Shown here: positions 9 to 6,029 of the stretch, piece by piece
How the letters are laid out: the number at the start of each line of letters is the position of its first letter
Numbering within the stretch: position 1 is the stretch's first letter
IMG/VR virus record: IMGVR_UViG_2740892432_000002
Coordinates: 1-6,210 of that record
Length of the DNA: 6,210 bases
Origin: a virus
Lineage: Duplodnaviria; Heunggongvirae; Uroviricota; Caudoviricetes
Reading direction: 5' to 3' (one strand)
Program-made: the position numbers and the translations under genes
Notes under the pieces: generated by a model
The model's input: the letters and a program-made list of their open reading frames with translations, nothing else
What the model was told of the DNA's origin: nothing
The model's database searches: none

Positions 9-30
9 GGCGGGGGAGAAATCCCCCGCC
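9..30 (+). other. Stable GC-rich hairpin (GGCGGGGGA / GAAA loop / TCCCCCGCC), no U-tract on either strand
   Basis: Perfect 9-bp inverted repeat with a GNRA-type GAAA tetraloop read directly from the sequence. Flanks are not T-rich on either strand, so it is not a canonical intrinsic terminator. Confidence 0.5.
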
Positions 31-69
31 ACCTCTGATGTGTCAGGCATCCTCAACGCACCCGTACTT

Positions 70-93
70 ACCCGCTTCGGCGGGTTTTTTGTT
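70..93 (+). terminator. Rho-independent terminator (ACCCGC / TTCG loop / GCGGGT followed by TTTTTTGTTGT)
   Basis: GC stem with a UUCG-type tetraloop immediately followed by a T6 run. It lies upstream of the first ORF, consistent with the end of an upstream transcription unit (tR-like terminator in a nin-type region). Confidence 0.65.
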
Positions 94-1184: not shown

Positions 1185-1474
1185 TGGTGGATTTACGTAA
1201 AGCGGCGCGGGGGCAGATGTGCACCGTCAGAATTCCTGGCTACTGCAATCACAATCCCGAAACATCTGTGCTGGCGCATTATAGGCTGGCGGGGACGTGC
1301 GGAACAGCGACAAAACCACACGATATGCAGGCAGCGATTGCCTGTAGCTCATGCCACGATTTAATCGACGGGCGGGTAAAAACCAGCGATTACACCAAAG
1401 AAGAATTACGCCTGATGCATGCAGAAGGTGTTTTTCGCACACAAGAAATCTGGAGAAAGGAAGGTTATTTATGA
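1184..1474 (+). CDS. YbcO-like (DUF1364) Cys-rich putative nuclease or zinc-binding protein, 96 aa
   Basis: 96-aa ORF containing several Cys plus a CSSCHD motif; size and position match the YbcO family found just upstream of Q in lambdoid prophages. Start ATG overlaps the upstream stop (TAATG) and its stop overlaps the Q start (ATGA), indicating translational coupling. Confidence 0.75.
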   Translation: MVDLRKAARGQMCTVRIPGYCNHNPETSVLAHYRLAGTCGTATKPHDMQAAIACSSCHDLIDGRVKTSDYTKEELRLMHAEGVFRTQEIWRKEGYL

Positions 1475-2013
1475 TTTACCCAACAAATACAGGCAAAAGC
1501 GGGGAACACCTTCGTCTCACCACGCTGGAAAGTGTCTGGATTCAGGGAAAACTGCGCATGTGGGGGCGCTGGTCGTATATTGGCGGCGGTAAGACGGGAA
1601 ATATGTTTAACCAGTTGCTGGCATCCAAAAAATTGACGAAAACAGCCGTCAATGAAGCCCTGCGCAGGATGAAAAAAGCGGGAATAGAGAAACCTGAGCT
1701 GGAAGCGTTTTTGCGAGAGATGATCAATGGCAAGCAAAAGACCTGGCTGGCGCATTGTACTGATGCAGAGGCGTTATGTATTGATAGAGTCATAAGTGAG
1801 GTGCTGGCAGAGCATCCTGGATTGATTAGTGTCCTCCGGCAACGGTATGAAGGACGGGGGATGACTAAGCGCAAAATGGCTGAATTGCTAAATGATGCAC
1901 ATCCTGAGTGGTGTTTTAGCACATGCGAAAAGCGAATTGCTAATTGGTTGGCTGTTGCTGAGTATGCCCTATATATTCCCATGCGAGAATCATTTGCTCA
2001 AAAAATAGCTTGA
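1471..2013 (+). CDS. Q-like late-gene antitermination protein (180 aa)
   Basis: Last gene before a terminator hairpin and the lysis cassette. Start ATG 1471 has an SD (GGAGAAAGGAAGG) 6 nt upstream and overlaps the upstream stop (ATGA). C-terminal half carries a four-Cys pattern (C-x7-C ... C-x3-C) compatible with the zinc-binding domain of Q proteins. The six-frame track's longer ORF from 1351 overlaps the upstream gene and is treated as a read-through artefact. Confidence 0.7.
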   Translation: MIYPTNTGKSGEHLRLTTLESVWIQGKLRMWGRWSYIGGGKTGNMFNQLLASKKLTKTAVNEALRRMKKAGIEKPELEAFLREMINGKQKTWLAHCTDAEALCIDRVISEVLAEHPGLISVLRQRYEGRGMTKRKMAELLNDAHPEWCFSTCEKRIANWLAVAEYALYIPMRESFAQKIA

Positions 2014-2096
2014 TTTTTTACGCATAAACTGCTTCAATTCCGGTATGCTTCGCAAAGCTGTATCGCGAGGCGAACCAAGCGCATGAACTTTACCAG
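2014..2096 (+). promoter_or_regulatory. Putative late promoter (PR'-like) and Q-utilisation region; exact -35/-10 not resolved
   Basis: Interval between the Q stop and the tR'-like hairpin, where lambdoid phages place PR' and qut. Only weak candidates were found (TTGATT at 2010-2015 with TTCAAT at 2033-2038). Call is by position, not a strong motif. Confidence 0.3.
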
Positions 2097-2125
2097 AACC
2101 CGCCATTGAGCGGGTTTTGTTGTTT
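2097..2125 (+). terminator. tR'-like rho-independent terminator (AACCCGC / CATTGA loop / GCGGGTT followed by TTGTTGTTT)
   Basis: 7-bp GC-rich stem followed by a T-rich tract about 85 nt downstream of the Q stop, the expected position of the terminator that Q-modified RNA polymerase reads through. Confidence 0.65.
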
Positions 2126-2197: not shown

Positions 2198-2206
2198 TGG
2201 TAAAAT
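2198..2206 (+). promoter_or_regulatory. Candidate extended -10 promoter (TGg-TAAAAT) for the moron gene
   Basis: TGn immediately upstream of a near-consensus -10 hexamer TAAAAT (2201-2206), about 28 nt before ATG 2235, which has a strong SD (GGAGGTGAG at 2226-2234). No good -35, as is typical of extended -10 promoters. Confidence 0.4.
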
Positions 2207-2234: not shown

Positions 2235-2804
2235 ATGAGAGAACTACCTAAAGATTATTTTTTAGGAGTAGATGATGAGCTCGTCGATTATCTTGAAAAA
2301 CAAGGGGAAGAGACGATACGAGAGATTCATCTTTCTAACAAAACCAATGTTGAGAATGGATACAAACTTCTGAACATTCAGATTGTTGGAATTGGTTCAT
2401 CTTTTTTATTGCTGACACAGAAAACTAATTTCGATTTTCTCACCGCCGGAATTACCACATTTACATTACTATGGACATGGTGCGCCATTTACTTGGTATG
2501 TACTGGTTTATCTGTGAAGGTTAGGGGCCTGATCAATGCCCCTCCTGATCATCTATATCATGAAAAATATAAGGATATGGAGCCCTCGAGCTTTAAAATA
2601 TTCGCTGATGCAGGATATTTAGGACCTGATAAGTTATTGCCGCTTATACGAAGGTATCGCCTTGTTGACTTGAGTGATACAGCAAGAGAGTTACTGTTGG
2701 AAAATGAGAAAATCCGCACGAGTCTCGATAAAGCAAGGATGTATACCATCCTTGCTCCGGTAGCGGCGATGTTTATCTCGGCTGTTTTTTTATATGTTCA
2801 ATGA
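2235..2804 (+). CDS. Hypothetical membrane protein, 189 aa, three predicted TM helices; moron between Q/tR' and holin
   Basis: ATG with a strong SD 4 nt upstream. Hydrophobic segments at roughly residues 46-63, 70-92 and 171-189 (C-terminal YTILAPVAAMFISAVFLYV). Acidic N-terminal segment of about 45 aa. Visibly more AT-rich than the flanking phage genes. I recognise no family. Confidence 0.65.
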   Translation: MRELPKDYFLGVDDELVDYLEKQGEETIREIHLSNKTNVENGYKLLNIQIVGIGSSFLLLTQKTNFDFLTAGITTFTLLWTWCAIYLVCTGLSVKVRGLINAPPDHLYHEKYKDMEPSSFKIFADAGYLGPDKLLPLIRRYRLVDLSDTARELLLENEKIRTSLDKARMYTILAPVAAMFISAVFLYVQ

Positions 2805-2934
2805 CTGAGTCGGCAGAATCTCCAACAAAAACACGACGTGTAGCAAAGTCTGTAGTACTTTGTGTTGGAGTTGGTTTTGGTGCCACGGGTTGCTGAGGTT
2901 TATTTTCACCTTGTGGTTTGTTTTTTTCAGACAT
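2773..2934 (-). CDS. Small hypothetical protein, 53 aa (MSEKNKPQGENKPQQPVAPKPTPTQSTTDFATRRVFVGDSADSVIEHIKKQPR), convergent with the moron gene
   Basis: ATG at 2934-2932 (- strand) with SD AGAGGA about 7 nt upstream. A plausible sigma70 -10 (TATATA/TATACT) lies upstream on the - strand near 2990-2998. The six-frame ORF (2773-3165) extends further 5' but the first SD-preceded ATG gives 53 aa. Pro/Gln-rich low-complexity N-terminus; overlaps the 3' end of the 189-aa gene by about 30 nt. Could be spurious. Confidence 0.3.
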   Translation of the reverse strand: MSEKNKPQGENKPQQPVAPKPTPTQSTTDFATRRVFVGDSADSVIEHIKKQPR

Positions 2935-3028
2935 AAAAATCCTCTTTGTTTGAATTGTTACTTTTGGCGATTTAACGATATCAAACACGAGTATATACCG
3001 CCAGAAGCTTAATCTGGCACTCCATCTG

Positions 3029-3056
3029 GCCCCGGCATGTCCCGGGGCTTTTTCGT
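3029..3056 (+). terminator. Rho-independent terminator (GCCCCGG / CATGTC loop / CCGGGGC followed by TTTTTCGTTGTT)
   Basis: Perfect 7-bp GC stem followed by a T5 run on the + strand, about 95 nt upstream of the holin start. It is oriented to stop + strand transcription from the moron promoter before the lysis genes. The - strand flank is not T-rich, so it is unidirectional. Confidence 0.65.
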
Positions 3057-3151
3057 TGTTAGGCTCCGGAAAGATCCTCGACTTCTTGTTAGCAAGCCTG
3101 AGAGCCTGAATCTTACACTTAGCACCATCCGAACTCTCGGAGGTGAGGCTT

Positions 3152-3493
3152 ATGAAAATGCACAATGCCCCTCATTCCTGGCCTGACTTACTGGAACTCT
3201 TACAAAGTTGGTGGCGTGGAGATACGCCGCTGGGTGCAGTGGTTATGTCAATTATTATGGCTGGTTTGCGCATTGCCTATTTTGGCGGTGGCGGCGGCTG
3301 GAAACGAAAAACGCTTGAGATTCTGCTTTGTGGTGCTCTGACGCTGACCTTTGCATCCGCGCTTGAGTATGTCGGATGGCCTAAATCACTTTCTGTTGCC
3401 ATTGGTGGTGGGGTGGGGCTGATTGGTGTTGATGCTATTCGTGGTGCGGCAATGAGGGTCATCGGTAACAAGTTCGGTGCCCATAAGGAGTAA
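3152..3493 (+). CDS. Holin (three predicted TM helices, MKM dual-start motif); not lambda S-like in sequence
   Basis: Sits immediately upstream of the endolysin (stop TAA 3491-3493, R ATG 3497). SD GGAGG at 3139-3143 is 8 nt before ATG 3152, and a second Met follows at codon 3 (M-K-M), as in the lambda S107/S105 holin/antiholin arrangement. An in-frame GTG at 3143 would give MRLMKM. Three hydrophobic helices and a charged C-terminus (RGAAMRVIGNKFGAHKE). Confidence 0.8.
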   Translation: MKMHNAPHSWPDLLELLQSWWRGDTPLGAVVMSIIMAGLRIAYFGGGGGWKRKTLEILLCGALTLTFASALEYVGWPKSLSVAIGGGVGLIGVDAIRGAAMRVIGNKFGAHKE

Positions 3494-3496
3494 TTA

Positions 3497-3973
3497 ATGC
3501 AGACACTTAATTCCCAGCGTAAAGCTTTCCTTGATATGGTGGCATGGTCAGAAGGAACAGATAACGGACGGCAGAAAACCAGAAATCACGGTTATGATGT
3601 TATTGTCGGTGGCGAACTGTTCACTGATTACTCCGATCACCCCCGCAAACTTGTCACGCTAAATCCGAAACTCAAATCAACAGCCGCTGGACGTTACCAG
3701 CTTCTTTCACGCTGGTGGGATGCCTACCGCAAGCAACTTGGCCTGAAAGATTTTTCTCCAGAAAGTCAGGATGCTGTAGCGCTGCAGCAGATTAAAGAGC
3801 GTGGCGCTTTGCCGATGATTGATCGCGGTGATATCCGTCAGGCTATCGACCGTTGCAGCAATATATGGGCTTCACTGCCGGGCGCTGGTTATGGTCAGTT
3901 CGAGCATAAGGCTGACAGTCTGATTGCAAAATTCAAAGAAGCTGGCGGAACGGTCAGAGAGATTGAGGTATGA
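3497..3973 (+). CDS. R: Endolysin, lambda R-type lytic transglycosylase (158 aa)
   Basis: Translation is near-identical over most of its length to lambda R as I recall it ([55 protein letters not shown]...REI.V); only the first ~6 residues differ. Perfect SD AAGGAG 6 nt upstream. Stop overlaps the Rz start (ATGA at 3970-3973). Confidence 0.95.
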
Positions 3974-4434
3974 GCAGAGTAACCGCGATTATCTCCGCTC
4001 TGGTTATCTGCATCGTCGTCTGCCTGTCATGGGGTGTTAATCATTACCGTGATAACGCCATCGCCTACAAAGAACAGCGCGACAAAAATGCCAGAGAACT
4101 GAAGCTGGCGAACGCGGCAATTACTGACATGCAGATGCGTCAGCGTGATGTTGCTGCGCTCGATGCAAAATACACGAAGGAGTTAGCTGATGCGAAAGCT
4201 GAAAATGATGTTCTGCGTGATGATGTTGCCGCTGGTCGTCGTCGGTTGCACATCAAAGCAGTCTGTCAGTCAGTGCGTGAAGCCACCACCGCCTCCGGCG
4301 TGGATAATGCAGCCTCCCCCCGACTGGCAGACACCGCTGAACGGGATTATTTCACCCTCCGGGAACGACTGGTAATGATGCAGGCCCAACTTGAAGGTGC
4401 TCAGCAATACATAACCGAGCAGTGTTTAAAGTAA
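3970..4434 (+). CDS. Rz: Rz i-spanin (inner-membrane spanin subunit), 154 aa
   Basis: N-terminal TM helix ([16 protein letters not shown]) followed by a charged, coiled-coil-like periplasmic domain. Near-identical to lambda Rz from memory. Position after R and the embedded Rz1 confirm the call. Confidence 0.95.
4190..4375 (+). CDS. Rz1: Rz1 o-spanin lipoprotein (61 aa), fully embedded in the +1 frame of Rz
   Basis: Signal peptide with lipobox (LVVVGC), then a Pro-rich mature region ([18 protein letters not shown]). Matches lambda Rz1 and the Rac RzoR as I recall them. Classic embedded-gene architecture. Confidence 0.9.
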
Positions 4435-4571: not shown

Positions 4572-6029
4572 ATGAATACATCTCATGTAAGAGTTGTTAC
4601 TCATATGTGTGGGTTCCTGGTTTGGCTCTATAGTCTTTCAATGTTGCCACCAATGGTTGTAGCATTGTTTTATAAAGAAAAAAGCCTGTTCGTTTTCTTA
4701 ATAACTTTCGTTATATTTTTTTGCATTGGTGGCGGAGCGTGGTATACAACTAAGAAATCTGGCATTCAATTACGTACCCGTGATGGGTTTATTATAATTG
4801 TAATGTTTTGGATTTTGTTTTCTGTTATTAGTGCATTCCCTTTATGGATTGACTCAGAACTTAATTTAACGTTCATTGATGCTCTGTTTGAAGGGGTTTC
4901 TGGAATAACAACAACAGGAGCAACTGTAATTGATGATGTTAGTTCATTACCTCGGGCATATTTGTACTATCGGTCACAGTTAAATTTTATAGGTGGTTTA
5001 GGAGTTATTGTTCTGGCGGTTGCTGTATTGCCATTATTGGGTATTGGTGGTGCAAAGCTTTATCAGTCAGAAATGCCGGGGCCATTTAAGGATGACAAAC
5101 TCACTCCCCGCCTGGCCGATACGTCACGGACACTGTGGATAACTTATTCTTTATTAGGTATTGCTTGTATTGTCTGTTATAGACTTGCAGGAATGCCTTT
5201 GTTTGATGCTATTTGTCACGGGATTTCCACAGTTTCGCTTGGTGGTTTCTCAACTCATAGCGAGAGTATCGGATATTTTAATAACTATTTGGTTGAGCTG
5301 GTGGCTGGTTCTTTTTCCCTGCTATCGGCTTTCAACTTCACTCTTTGGTATATTGTTATTAGCAGGAAAACGATAAAACCTTTAATCAGAGATATTGAAC
5401 TTCGTTTCTTTCTGTTAATAGCCTTAGGGGTGATCATTGTTACCTCTTTCCAGGTCTGGCATATAGGTATGTATGACTTGCATGGAAGTTTTATTCATTC
5501 GTTTTTTCTTGCCAGCTCCATGCTCACTGATAATGGTTTAGCTACGCAGGATTATGCAAGTTGGCCCACGCACACGATAGTGTTTTTGCTGTTGTCAAGT
5601 TTCTTTGGGGGATGTATAGGTTCAACTTGTGGTGGAATTAAGTCACTTCGATTTCTTATACTTTTCAAACAAAGCAAACACGAGATAAATCAGCTTTCTC
5701 ATCCCAGAGCGTTGTTGAGTGTAAATGTAGGAGGGAAGATAGTTACAGATCGTGTAATGAGGTCTGTATGGAGTTTCTTTTTTCTTTATACTCTCTTCAC
5801 GGTGTTTTTTATACTGGTGTTAAATGGTATGGGATATGATTTTCTTACATCATTTGCAACAGTGGCTGCATGTATTAATAATATGGGATTAGGTTTTGGG
5901 GCTACTGCATCGTCATTCGGAGTGCTTAATGACATTGCAAAATGTTTAATGTGCATAGCTATGATTCTTGGTCGCCTTGAAATTTATCCTGTTATTATAT
6001 TGTTTTCAGGTTTTTTTTGGCGCTCCTAA
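4572..6029 (+). CDS. trkG: TrkG/TrkH-family potassium uptake membrane protein (485 aa from ATG 4572)
   Basis: Long polytopic membrane protein with repeated Gly-rich selectivity-filter-like motifs (GITTTGATV, GGFSTH, GLATQDY, NNMGLGFG). N-terminus MNTSHVRVVTHM matches Rac-prophage TrkG as I recall it. Markedly AT-rich compared with the adjacent lysis genes. An in-frame TTG at 4554 has a better-placed SD (AAGGTGG at 4541-4547), so the true start may be 6 codons upstream. Confidence 0.93.
   Translation: MNTSHVRVVTHMCGFLVWLYSLSMLPPMVVALFYKEKSLFVFLITFVIFFCIGGGAWYTTKKSGIQLRTRDGFIIIVMFWILFSVISAFPLWIDSELNLTFIDALFEGVSGITTTGATVIDDVSSLPRAYLYYRSQLNFIGGLGVIVLAVAVLPLLGIGGAKLYQSEMPGPFKDDKLTPRLADTSRTLWITYSLLGIACIVCYRLAGMPLFDAICHGISTVSLGGFSTHSESIGYFNNYLVELVAGSFSLLSAFNFTLWYIVISRKTIKPLIRDIELRFFLLIALGVIIVTSFQVWHIGMYDLHGSFIHSFFLASSMLTDNGLATQDYASWPTHTIVFLLLSSFFGGCIGSTCGGIKSLRFLILFKQSKHEINQLSHPRALLSVNVGGKIVTDRVMRSVWSFFFLYTLFTVFFILVLNGMGYDFLTSFATVAACINNMGLGFGATASSFGVLNDIAKCLMCIAMILGRLEIYPVIILFSGFFWRS

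What the first reader, a model, noticed from the sequence alone, without database searches (positions are those of the whole stretch)
2773..3056. Convergent small ORF overlapping the moron 3' end, upstream of a + strand terminator
A 53-aa ORF on the - strand has a good SD and a plausible -10 and converges on the 189-aa gene, overlapping it by about 30 nt. Transcripts from the moron promoter that run to the terminator at 3029-3056 would be fully antisense to this small gene and its promoter. That topology could give mutual antisense or transcriptional-interference regulation, or encode a small partner protein (antitoxin/immunity-like). The product is hydrophilic and Pro/Gln-rich at its N-terminus, unlike a typical type I toxin.
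Basis: inference. Interest (0 to 1): 0.5.

Follow-up and report, generated by a model that had tools for sequence, protein, structure and literature searches.

The report
Conserved small partner gene of prophage moron
The 53-codon reading frame on the opposite strand is a real, selected gene that always travels with the neighbouring 189-residue membrane-protein gene in prophages of enteric bacteria and Pasteurellaceae, forming an uncharacterised two-gene cassette whose function, probably protection against other phages, is still unknown.

Summary
A 53-aa ORF (2773-2934, - strand; ATG with AGAGGA 5 nt upstream) converges on the 189-aa gene (2235-2804) with a 32-nt overlap, and a + strand terminator lies at 3028-3049.

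It is a real coding gene. In 35 diverse loci, where the big protein falls to about 35-50% identity, a 41-64 aa convergent ORF with ATG and SD is always present. The other five frames are open in 0-8 of 35. dN/dS is 0.05-0.27, matching the big gene.

The pairing is reciprocal. Starting from small-protein homologues (61 clusters), the convergent neighbour was the 177-211 aa membrane protein in all nine places read.

The small protein is predicted disordered, with a conserved ...F-x3-R-x2-VGDSA(D/E) motif and a basic tail. Neither protein matches Pfam, NCBIfam or PADLOC.

The cassette behaves as a mobile moron. It has an upstream terminator, a conserved -10 (TAAAAT), a downstream terminator and low GC. 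The small gene is usually the only opposite-strand gene in a co-directional phage operon, as in phi80 tai/ati.

PGAP's 71-aa GTG start is probably wrong. Its extension translates a 28-nt DNA block (about 29 nt in the cross-locus consensus) shared with unrelated - strand cargo, including a PD-T4-10-like defence system.

Function is inferred, not shown: a membrane effector with a small labile partner.

The parts
2773..2934 (-). Small partner gene, 53 aa, true start ATG at 2934. Disordered Pro/Gln/Lys-rich N-terminal half, conserved motif DFATRRVFVGDSAD, basic C-terminal tail.
   Evidence: The frame is open with ATG and SD in 35/35 loci, dN/dS is 0.05-0.27, and 61 homologue clusters of 41-64 aa were found.
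2940..2945 (-). Shine-Dalgarno AGAGGA of the small gene, 5 nt before the ATG.
   Evidence: An SD-like GGAG/AGGA/GAGG lies at the same place in all 35 loci.
2235..2804 (+). 189-aa inner-membrane protein gene (phrog_11870). Acidic N-terminal cytoplasmic helix, TM1 with VGIGSSFLLL, TM2, basic cytoplasmic segment with RRYRL, C-terminal TM3.
   Evidence: More than 100 clusters, nearly all about 189 aa. AF2 pLDDT is 83 with three long helices. No Pfam, NCBIfam or PADLOC match.
2773..2804 (.). 32-nt convergent 3' overlap of the two coding regions.
   Evidence: The overlap is 0-35 nt (mode 20) across 35 loci.
2198..2206 (+). Candidate promoter of the 189-aa gene: extended -10 TGGTAAAAT. The TAAAAT/TAAGAT hexamer is conserved about 30-35 nt before the start codon.
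   Evidence: present in about 26 of 30 diverse loci (my reading of the listed upstream sequences, not a scripted count), usually 40-60 nt after a terminator. It was not called by the two-hexamer scan.
2094..2119 (+). Intrinsic terminator between the Q-like gene and the cassette. It bounds the moron upstream and may be the tR' of a Q-proximal late promoter.
   Evidence: It resembles the first terminator after pR'/qut annotated in phage 933W. The assignment as tR' is inference.
2957..2984 (.). 28-nt conserved block, about 29 nt in the cross-locus consensus (+ strand GTTACTTTTGGCGATTTAACGATATCAA). It sits 22 nt upstream of the small gene's ATG. It is probably the - strand promoter/operator for cargo at this hotspot.
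   Evidence: It is nearly invariant in 59 unique contexts. All block loci examined have a - strand cargo ORF next to it, and in the 59 contexts laid out the start codon lies about 21-29 nt away. The dyad GTTA/TAAC shows compensatory changes. It occurs with three different Q families.
3000..3018 (+). Hairpin GCCAGA-N7-TCTGGC between the block and the terminator. The structure is kept with different sequences in other loci.
   Evidence: by reading the alignment. RNAalifold did not call it.
3028..3054 (+). Intrinsic terminator (8-bp stem, 7 GC pairs, T run) that ends + strand transcripts before the holin gene.
   Evidence: A + strand terminator at the equivalent place is seen in nearly all loci.
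1471..2013 (+). Q-like late antiterminator (DUF1133 with a weak Phage_antitermQ match). This is context.
3152..3493 (+). Lambda-family holin, the first gene of the lysis cassette (endolysin 3497-3973, Rz 3970-4434, Rz1 4190-4375). This is context.

Best explanation
The 53-aa ORF is a bona fide protein-coding gene. Together with the 189-aa gene it forms an obligate two-gene moron cassette that moves between prophages of Enterobacterales and Pasteurellaceae. Shown: both genes are under purifying selection, are always found together, and always converge with their 3' ends touching or overlapping. The big protein is a three-TM inner-membrane protein whose soluble parts face the cytoplasm. The small protein is a cytoplasmic, intrinsically disordered peptide with one conserved short motif (F-x3-R-x2-VGDSA-D/E) and a basic tail. 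Inferred: the small protein binds and controls the membrane protein, as a labile antidote or regulator. The cassette most likely serves the lysogen as a phage-exclusion or abortive-infection device. Expression is coupled by layout. The big gene has its own conserved -10 and is co-directional with the surrounding phage operon. The small gene is the lone opposite-strand gene, so transcripts of the big gene that run to the terminator at 3028-3049, and any antiterminated late transcripts, are antisense to the small gene and collide with its transcription. Rising rightward transcription after induction, or loss of host transcription on infection, would therefore tip the ratio towards the free membrane protein.
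For: Gene reality: the frame is open with ATG and SD in 35/35 diverse loci against 0-8/35 for other frames. dN/dS is 0.05-0.27 in 13 unsaturated pairs over the non-overlapping part, the same range as the big gene. Called variants carry in-frame PT-repeat indels. There are 61 homologue clusters of 41-64 aa. Partnership: the small ORF lies downstream of every full-length big-gene homologue in genome and viral contigs, including Pasteurellaceae-type loci. It is absent where the big gene is truncated (L009, L010). Starting from three distant small proteins, all nine places read have the 177-211 aa Pfam-less protein as convergent neighbour. The pair occurs in at least three unrelated genomic contexts, so it moves as a unit. 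Moron features: terminator 2094-2119, conserved TAAAAT, terminator 3028-3049, and GC 0.36-0.39 at 2201-2600 (up to 0.45 further into the cassette) against 0.43-0.56 in the flanks. An independent - strand promoter exists at least in Pasteurellaceae loci (TTGTCA-17-TATAAT). Layout: the nearest upstream ORF is co-directional with the big gene in 32/35 loci, and the nearest downstream ORF in 25/33. Precedent: in phi80 the opposite-strand gene taiEcA interrupts the Q-dependent operon next to its binding partner atiEcA, and Q lowers TaiEcA (PMC11364771). Disorder: AF2 pLDDT 62.6, pTM 0.17. Hotspot character: the same upstream block drives other cargo, including a PD-T4-10-like system.
Against: No experiment or expression data of any kind was available. 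No homology links either protein to a toxin, antitoxin, holin, Sie protein or defence system, so the function is argued from layout only. The E. coli small gene has no convincing sigma-70 promoter. Copies with a frameshifted or altered small ORF next to an intact big gene exist (L027; P0007, P0014). If these are real rather than sequencing errors in the A7 run, they argue against an essential antidote. Under the phi80 precedent the polarity would be the reverse, with the opposite-strand gene as the defence. The position of the late promoter, and hence whether late transcripts cross the cassette, is inferred and not shown.
Confidence: 0.5

Rival explanations
1. Reverse polarity, as in phi80 Tai/Ati and S. 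aureus Tha. The opposite-strand small protein is the lysogen-expressed immune or sensor factor. The co-directional 189-aa membrane protein is made mainly with the phage's own late or structural operon, to neutralise or sequester it and so avoid autoimmunity.
For: The layout is identical to the noncontiguous operon described for phi80, where the opposite-strand gene is the constitutively expressed defence and the co-directional neighbour is the Q-dependent counter-defence that binds it. Orientation statistics fit. The small gene sits first behind the block that elsewhere precedes a PD-T4-10-like defence system.
Against: A 41-64 aa disordered peptide is an unlikely stand-alone effector. The big gene has its own conserved -10 just after a terminator, which suggests expression in the lysogen too. 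Membrane proteins of this size are the usual effectors in exclusion or Abi systems (general knowledge).
Confidence: 0.2
2. The frame is not translated. What is conserved is an antisense RNA, or the 3' UTR and terminator region of the big gene, and the ORF is incidental.
For: The geometry favours antisense effects. The E. coli promoter is weak. Some assemblies carry frameshifted copies.
Against: Substitutions are strongly biased to synonymous sites in this frame only (dN/dS 0.05-0.27). The frame is open in 35/35 loci, and ATG and SD are kept. The protein motif is kept while the DNA diverges to saturation between Enterobacterales and Pasteurellaceae.
Confidence: 0.03
3. The pair is an accessory of the lysis programme, such as a holin or antiholin modulator or a lysis-timing device, rather than a lysogen-benefit module.
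For: In the window and most loci it sits directly upstream of the holin, downstream of Q. One partner is a small multi-TM membrane protein. Rightward late transcription would raise the membrane protein and lower the small one.
Against: The same pair sits before the tape-measure gene in E. coli prophages and in HP1/Mu-like Pasteurella prophages far from lysis genes. It has no match to holin families. It has its own promoter and flanking terminators, and closely related phages lack it and carry other cargo there.
Confidence: 0.1
4. The two genes are co-inherited only because they share one mobile cassette. They act independently, for example one on the envelope and one on a host target, with no direct interaction.
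For: No interaction evidence exists. The small protein's motif could be a short linear motif for a host protein.
Against: Neither gene was found without the other in about 45 diverse loci read from both sides. Orientation and 3' overlap were kept throughout. Both genes decay together in L009 and L010.
Confidence: 0.12

Closest known systems
phi80 taiEcA/atiEcA 'noncontiguous operon' (Tai defence and its counter-defence; PMC11364771), and the S. aureus Tha system cited there
   Same: It is a prophage two-gene unit in which one gene lies on the opposite strand inside a co-directional, Q-dependent phage operon next to its partner. The partners bind each other, and late transcription lowers the opposite-strand product. 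The layout matches the window and 32/35 loci.
   Different: No Tai-like annotation turned up among the hits, but Tai and Ati sequences were never compared directly. tblastn of the 189-aa protein finds only 5 phage records, none of them phi80. Here the genes converge and overlap at their 3' ends, one partner is a 3-TM membrane protein and the other a disordered peptide. The co-directional gene also has its own promoter.
Classical phage morons such as HK97 gp15 (PMC3594210)
   Same: It is an independent transcription unit with a promoter and terminators, inserted between conserved phage genes, with low GC and patchy distribution. It encodes an inner-membrane protein. Some copies occupy the same kind of site just before the tape-measure gene.
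   Different: This is a two-gene convergent unit, not a single gene. The 189-aa protein has no tblastn hit in HK97 or any other classical phage record in the 'phages' collection, which returned only 5 records in all. Exclusion activity is untested.
P22/lambda sieB with esc and the antisense sas RNA (from general knowledge, not read here)
   Same: A prophage membrane exclusion protein of about 190 aa whose activity is countered by a small phage-encoded product, with control by antisense transcription inside the locus.
   Different: There is no Pfam SieB match. Esc is an in-frame internal product of sieB, not a separate convergent gene. sas is a non-coding RNA.
Type I and type II toxin-antitoxin modules (hok/sok, relBE and similar)
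   Same: A two-gene addiction-like unit on mobile DNA. Overlapping opposite-strand transcription resembles type I, and a small disordered labile protein partner resembles type II antitoxins.
   Different: The small product is a hydrophilic protein, not a hydrophobic toxin or an RNA. The genes are convergent, not an operon. No TA domain is detected.
Convergently arranged restriction-modification gene pairs (general knowledge)
   Same: A potentially harmful gene and its protective gene face each other, so that convergent transcription helps to set their ratio.
   Different: There are no nuclease or methylase domains, and the proteins are unrelated.

Membership tests
Protein-coding gene (versus chance ORF or non-coding antisense RNA) | The reading frame is kept open with start codon and SD in diverged homologues, and substitutions are biased to synonymous sites. 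| tested here: met
   35/35 loci are open with ATG and SD, against 0-8/35 for other frames. dN/dS is 0.05-0.27.
Phage moron | An autonomous unit with its own promoter and flanking terminators, inserted between conserved phage genes, with patchy distribution and deviant composition. | tested here: met
   Terminators at 2094-2119 and 3028-3049. Conserved -10 TAAAAT. GC 0.36-0.39 at 2201-2600 (up to 0.45 further into the cassette) against 0.43-0.56 in the flanks. Related phages carry other cargo at the same site. The pair is found in three different contexts. Promoter activity itself was not tested.
Noncontiguous operon (Saenz-Lahoya type, as in phi80 tai/ati) | A gene on the opposite strand is embedded in an operon, so that the operon transcript overlaps it in antisense. 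| tested here: inconclusive
   The gene order and orientation fit (32/35 upstream and 25/33 downstream neighbours are co-directional). The overlapping transcript is not testable from sequence.
Type I toxin-antitoxin | A small hydrophobic membrane toxin peptide plus a non-coding antisense RNA. | tested here: not met
   The small product is hydrophilic with no TM segment, and the opposite-strand partner is a 189-aa protein gene.
Type II toxin-antitoxin | A co-transcribed operon of a DNA-binding antitoxin and a soluble toxin with a recognisable TA domain. | tested here: not met
   The genes are convergent. There are no Pfam, NCBIfam or PADLOC TA domains.
SieB superinfection exclusion family | Sequence match to the SieB family model. 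| tested here: not met
   No Pfam hit at E <= 1 for the window protein or for 38 family members.
SLATT 2-TM effector domains | Match to the SLATT profiles. | tested here: not met
Known anti-phage defence systems (PADLOC v2) | Match to any component model. | tested here: not met
   No hit for either protein at E <= 1.
Holins and antiholins | Match to a holin family, with obligatory position in a lysis cassette. | tested here: not met
   No Pfam holin match. The pair also occurs away from lysis genes.

The most novel reading that the evidence does not exclude
The cassette is a new, widespread prophage immunity or abortive-infection system. A previously unrecognised family of three-TM membrane effectors is held in check, or triggered, by a 41-64 aa intrinsically disordered protein acting through a single short motif (VGDSA-D/E). 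The convergent, overlapping, opposite-strand layout would be the built-in switch that links its state to phage late transcription or to host transcription shut-off.
Probability: 0.3. Interest if true: 0.65.

Novelty: new variant of a known kind. Interest (0 to 1): 0.45.

Why it matters
The small gene is annotated with a probably wrong start in RefSeq and is missed entirely in several phage records. The membrane protein has no family assignment. Yet the pair is present in about 5% of complete E. coli genomes (257 of 5426) and in many Klebsiella, Yersinia, Serratia, Citrobacter and Pasteurellaceae prophages. If it proves to be an exclusion or abortive-infection module, it adds a compact system with an unusual effector-plus-disordered-peptide design. 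It would also give a second enterobacterial example of the noncontiguous-operon logic for coupling prophage immunity to the lytic switch. The shared 28-nt block marks a cargo hotspot between Q and the lysis genes that could be mined for further systems.

Tried and rejected
1. Domain and family searches (Pfam, NCBIfam, PADLOC, PHROGs) on both proteins, on 38 family members and on 10 remote relatives gave only function-less PHROGs.

3. Rfam and tRNA scans found nothing in the cassette.

4. I tested whether the conserved block is the late promoter with a 21Q-type Q-binding element.
- For: it has 8-bp direct repeats TTGGCGAT/TTAACGAT like QBEu/QBEd of phage 21, and a terminator follows within about 60 nt.
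- Against: the block occurs with three different Q families (DUF1133, PF06530, PF03589). It has poor hexamers, and every block locus examined has a - strand cargo gene next to it, with starts about 21-29 nt away in the 59 contexts. The Q-proximal region in EKP1-type loci is the one homologous to 933W's annotated pR'-qut-tR'.
- Outcome: kept only as a minor alternative.

5. A boxA-like reading of GCGATTTAACGA (9 of 12 to the rrn boxA as I recall it) was an idea only and was not pursued.

6. RNAalifold on the block-to-terminator region recovered the terminator and a weak GTTA/TAAC stem but not hairpin 1.

7. Relation to HK97 gp15 was rejected: no tblastn hit.

8. A literature search for the sequences, accessions and PHROG ids found nothing.

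9. Single-protein scans of viral contigs with remote relatives P0145 and P0161 found nothing.

Full report
**Setting**

The window is the late region of a Rac-like lambdoid prophage of E. coli.
- The gene order is DUF1367, DUF1364, a DUF1133 Q-like antiterminator (1471-2013), and a terminator (2094-2119).
- Next come the 189-aa gene (2235-2804, +), the small ORF (2773-2934, -), a terminator (3028-3049), and then holin, endolysin, Rz/Rz1 and trkG.
- The 1061-bp stretch around the finding is present in 257 of 5426 complete E. coli genomes, mostly at 99% identity or more.
- PGAP annotates both genes as hypothetical proteins. It starts the small one at GTG 2988, giving 71 aa (WP_152948782.1). Several phage records do not annotate it at all.

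**Observation**

- The 53-aa frame has an ATG at 2934 and an AGAGGA 5 nt upstream.
- It overlaps the 189-aa gene by 32 nt, and a good + strand terminator lies at 3028-3049.
- The promoter is the weak point. The consensus scan finds none on either strand.
- The best - strand reading is TTGATA-18-TAACAA.

**Is it a gene?**

Relatives of the 189-aa protein came from one genome per species, from IMG/VR and from the large protein collections.
- In every locus with a full-length relative there is an ORF of 41-64 aa on the opposite strand immediately downstream. This holds for E. coli, Leclercia, Trabulsiella, Serratia, Yersinia, many uncultivated viral contigs and AT-rich Pasteurellaceae-type contigs.
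- That ORF converges on the big gene and overlaps it by 0-35 nt.
- It is missing only where the big gene is truncated (L009, L010). It is interrupted only in one copy with a 1-nt change in an A7 run (L027) and one with an N in the sequence (L015).
- In 35 diverse loci the frame is open with ATG and an SD in all 35. The other five frames are open in 0-8.
- Over the part that does not overlap the big gene, Nei-Gojobori dN/dS is 0.05-0.27 in all 13 unsaturated comparisons. The big gene gives 0.05-0.17.
- The called protein variants differ by in-frame PT-repeat indels.
- The protein pattern is MS(E/Q)xNKP, a Pro/Gln/Lys-rich tract, (D/E)F-x3-R-x2-VGDSA(D/E), and a basic tail. It survives between Enterobacterales and Pasteurellaceae although the DNA is saturated.
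- This excludes a chance ORF and a purely non-coding antisense element.
- The ATG at 2934 is the conserved start. PGAP's upstream extension is just the translation of a conserved DNA block, and the frame is closed there in other loci.

**Is it a partner of the 189-aa gene?**

The association is reciprocal.
- A profile of 26 small proteins finds 61 clusters, all 41-64 aa hypothetical proteins of Enterobacterales and Pasteurellaceae.
- For three distant members (Pasteurella multocida, Klebsiella, E. coli) all nine places read have a convergent 177-211 aa Pfam-less gene as neighbour.
- The pair occurs between Q antiterminators of three families and the holin. It also occurs just before the tape-measure gene of other E. 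coli prophages, and in HP1/Mu-like Pasteurella prophages.
- So it is a self-contained mobile unit.
- It has the marks of a moron. A terminator lies upstream.
- It also has a conserved -10 (TAAAAT/TAAGAT, with TGG before it in the window at 2198-2206) about 30-35 nt before the big gene's start. I counted it by eye in about 26 of 30 loci.
- A + strand terminator follows the small gene, and GC is lower than in the flanks.

**The two proteins**

The 189-aa family has more than 100 clusters and remote relatives of 160-200 aa.
- It has an acidic N-terminal helix running into TM1 (VGIGSSFLLL), then TM2, a basic cytoplasmic segment (P-x2-LY, RRYRL), and a long C-terminal helix ending in TM3.
- AF2 gives pLDDT 83.
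- The charge distribution puts both soluble parts in the cytoplasm. This is inference from the positive-inside rule.
- The small protein has no hydrophobic segment and is predicted disordered, with pLDDT 62.6, pTM 0.17 and one short helix at 40-49.

**Expression signals and the conserved block**

A 28-nt block lies 22 nt upstream of the small gene's ATG. It is about 29 nt in the cross-locus consensus.
- On the + strand at 2957-2984 it reads GTTACTTTTGGCGATTTAACGATATCAA. It is more conserved than the coding sequences.
- An exact 20-mer from it finds 73 viral contigs. Of these, 47 have the gene pair.
- The other 26, together with the phage deposited as Elizabethkingia phage EKP1, carry unrelated - strand genes next to the block. 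Across the 59 unique contexts laid out, the - strand start codon lies about 21-29 nt from the block.
- These cargo genes include a 67-aa zinc-ribbon protein followed by a PD-T4-10-like two-gene defence system, proteins of 92, 148, 165, 170 and 176 aa, and in EKP1 a 48-aa Pro-rich protein plus a weakly SLATT_4-like 2-TM protein.
- On the + strand the block is followed by a hairpin and a terminator, or by tRNA genes, and then the lysis genes.
- I first suspected the block was the late promoter with a 21Q-type Q-binding element. It contains 8-bp direct repeats like those annotated in phage 21.
- But it occurs with Q proteins of three unrelated families. Every block locus examined also has a - strand gene next to it.
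- In EKP1-type loci the Q-proximal region is the one homologous to the annotated pR'-qut-tR' of 933W.
- The simplest reading is that the block is the promoter/operator region for lysogen-expressed, opposite-strand cargo at a Q-to-lysis hotspot, and the small gene uses it here.
- Its dyad GTTA/TAAC shows compensatory changes in three sequences, which suggests a bound regulator. This is inference.
- Four loci have the pair without the block.
- In Pasteurellaceae loci the small gene has a canonical TTGTCA-17-TATAAT promoter flanked by direct repeats. An independent - strand promoter is therefore a general feature of the pair.

**Mechanism**

Shown:
- The pair is two selected genes, always together and always convergent, each with its own translation signals.
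- One product is membrane-embedded, and the other is small, soluble and disordered.
- The small gene is usually the only opposite-strand gene in a co-directional phage operon. The nearest upstream ORF is co-directional in 32/35 loci and the nearest downstream ORF in 25/33.

Inferred:
- Transcripts of the big gene that run to 3028-3049, and antiterminated late transcripts if the late promoter is Q-proximal, are antisense to the whole small gene and collide with its transcription.
- This is the 'noncontiguous operon' layout shown experimentally for phi80 taiEcA/atiEcA.
- There the opposite-strand gene is expressed in the lysogen, its binding partner lies in the Q-dependent operon, and Q lowers the opposite-strand product (PMC11364771).

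My preferred model:
- The membrane protein is the effector of an exclusion or abortive-infection function.
- The disordered small protein is its labile cytoplasmic regulator or antidote.
- The layout shifts the ratio when rightward transcription rises or host transcription stops.

The main rival keeps the same architecture but reverses the roles, as in phi80. A lysis-accessory role is less likely because the pair also sits far from lysis genes. None of these functions has been tested.

**Comparison and novelty**

The kind of thing is known: a prophage moron, a two-gene conflict module with opposite-strand coupling. Both protein families are unassigned, and the combination of a 3-TM protein and a disordered peptide in convergent overlap has no described counterpart that I could find. 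I therefore class it as a new variant of a known kind with moderate interest.

Noticed in passing
window 2957-2984; also L092 2501-2547 and L093-L164: A 28-nt near-invariant block (about 29 nt in the cross-locus consensus) marks a cargo hotspot between Q and the lysis genes of many lambdoid prophages. All 73 contigs carrying it have a - strand gene next to it, and in the 59 unique contexts the start lies about 21-29 nt away. The cargo is diverse and includes a PD-T4-10-like defence pair behind a 67-aa zinc-ribbon gene. The block has a dyad GTTA/TAAC with compensatory changes and 8-bp direct repeats.
   Followed up: partly
window 2935-2988: RefSeq/PGAP starts the small gene at GTG 2988 (71 aa, WP_152948782.1), and phrog_14506 is built on that form. 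The extra 18 codons are the translation of the conserved DNA block and are not open in other loci, so the start is most likely ATG 2934.
   Followed up: yes
window 2921-2927: A run of seven A (on the - strand) lies in codons 3-5 of the small gene. One IMG/VR copy (L027) has six and is frameshifted while the big gene is intact. This could be a sequencing error or a slippage-prone switch.
   Followed up: no
window 10-90: An isrK-like RNA (Rfam RF01394, 33.2 bits, below the gathering score of 50, E = 2e-4, full-length match) lies upstream of the nin-like genes. IsrK is the Hfq-binding RNA of Salmonella Gifsy-1.
   Followed up: no
window 3096-3110: The direct repeat GCCTGAGAGCCTGAA (8-bp period) lies between the second terminator and the holin start. 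A similar motif occurs at the same place in EKP1, L150 and L094-type loci. Its spacing recalls the two-subsite Q-binding element of phage 21, so a holin-proximal Q site or promoter is possible.
   Followed up: no
L092 1884-2478 (phage deposited as Elizabethkingia phage EKP1): Behind the same block sit a 48-aa Pro-rich protein containing RQVTGDSMP, which resembles the R-x2-(V/T)GDSA motif, and a 146-aa 2-TM protein with a weak SLATT_4 match (E = 8e-6, below cut-off). This may be an analogous small-protein-plus-membrane-protein unit in operon orientation.
   Followed up: partly
L170-L175, about 30-90 nt upstream of the small gene: In Pasteurellaceae-type loci the small gene has a canonical TTGTCA-17-TATAAT promoter. 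It is bracketed by direct repeats CCACAACG(C/T)ATAA, which look like operator sites.
   Followed up: no
window 4572-6029 and the whole window: trkG lies directly after an intact S-R-Rz/Rz1 lysis cassette. The window therefore looks like an intact version of the late region of the Rac prophage, which from memory is degraded in E. coli K-12.
   Followed up: no
L183-L185, L065, L177-L179: A KilA-N or Bro-N domain gene often lies next to the gene pair in the non-Q contexts.
   Followed up: no
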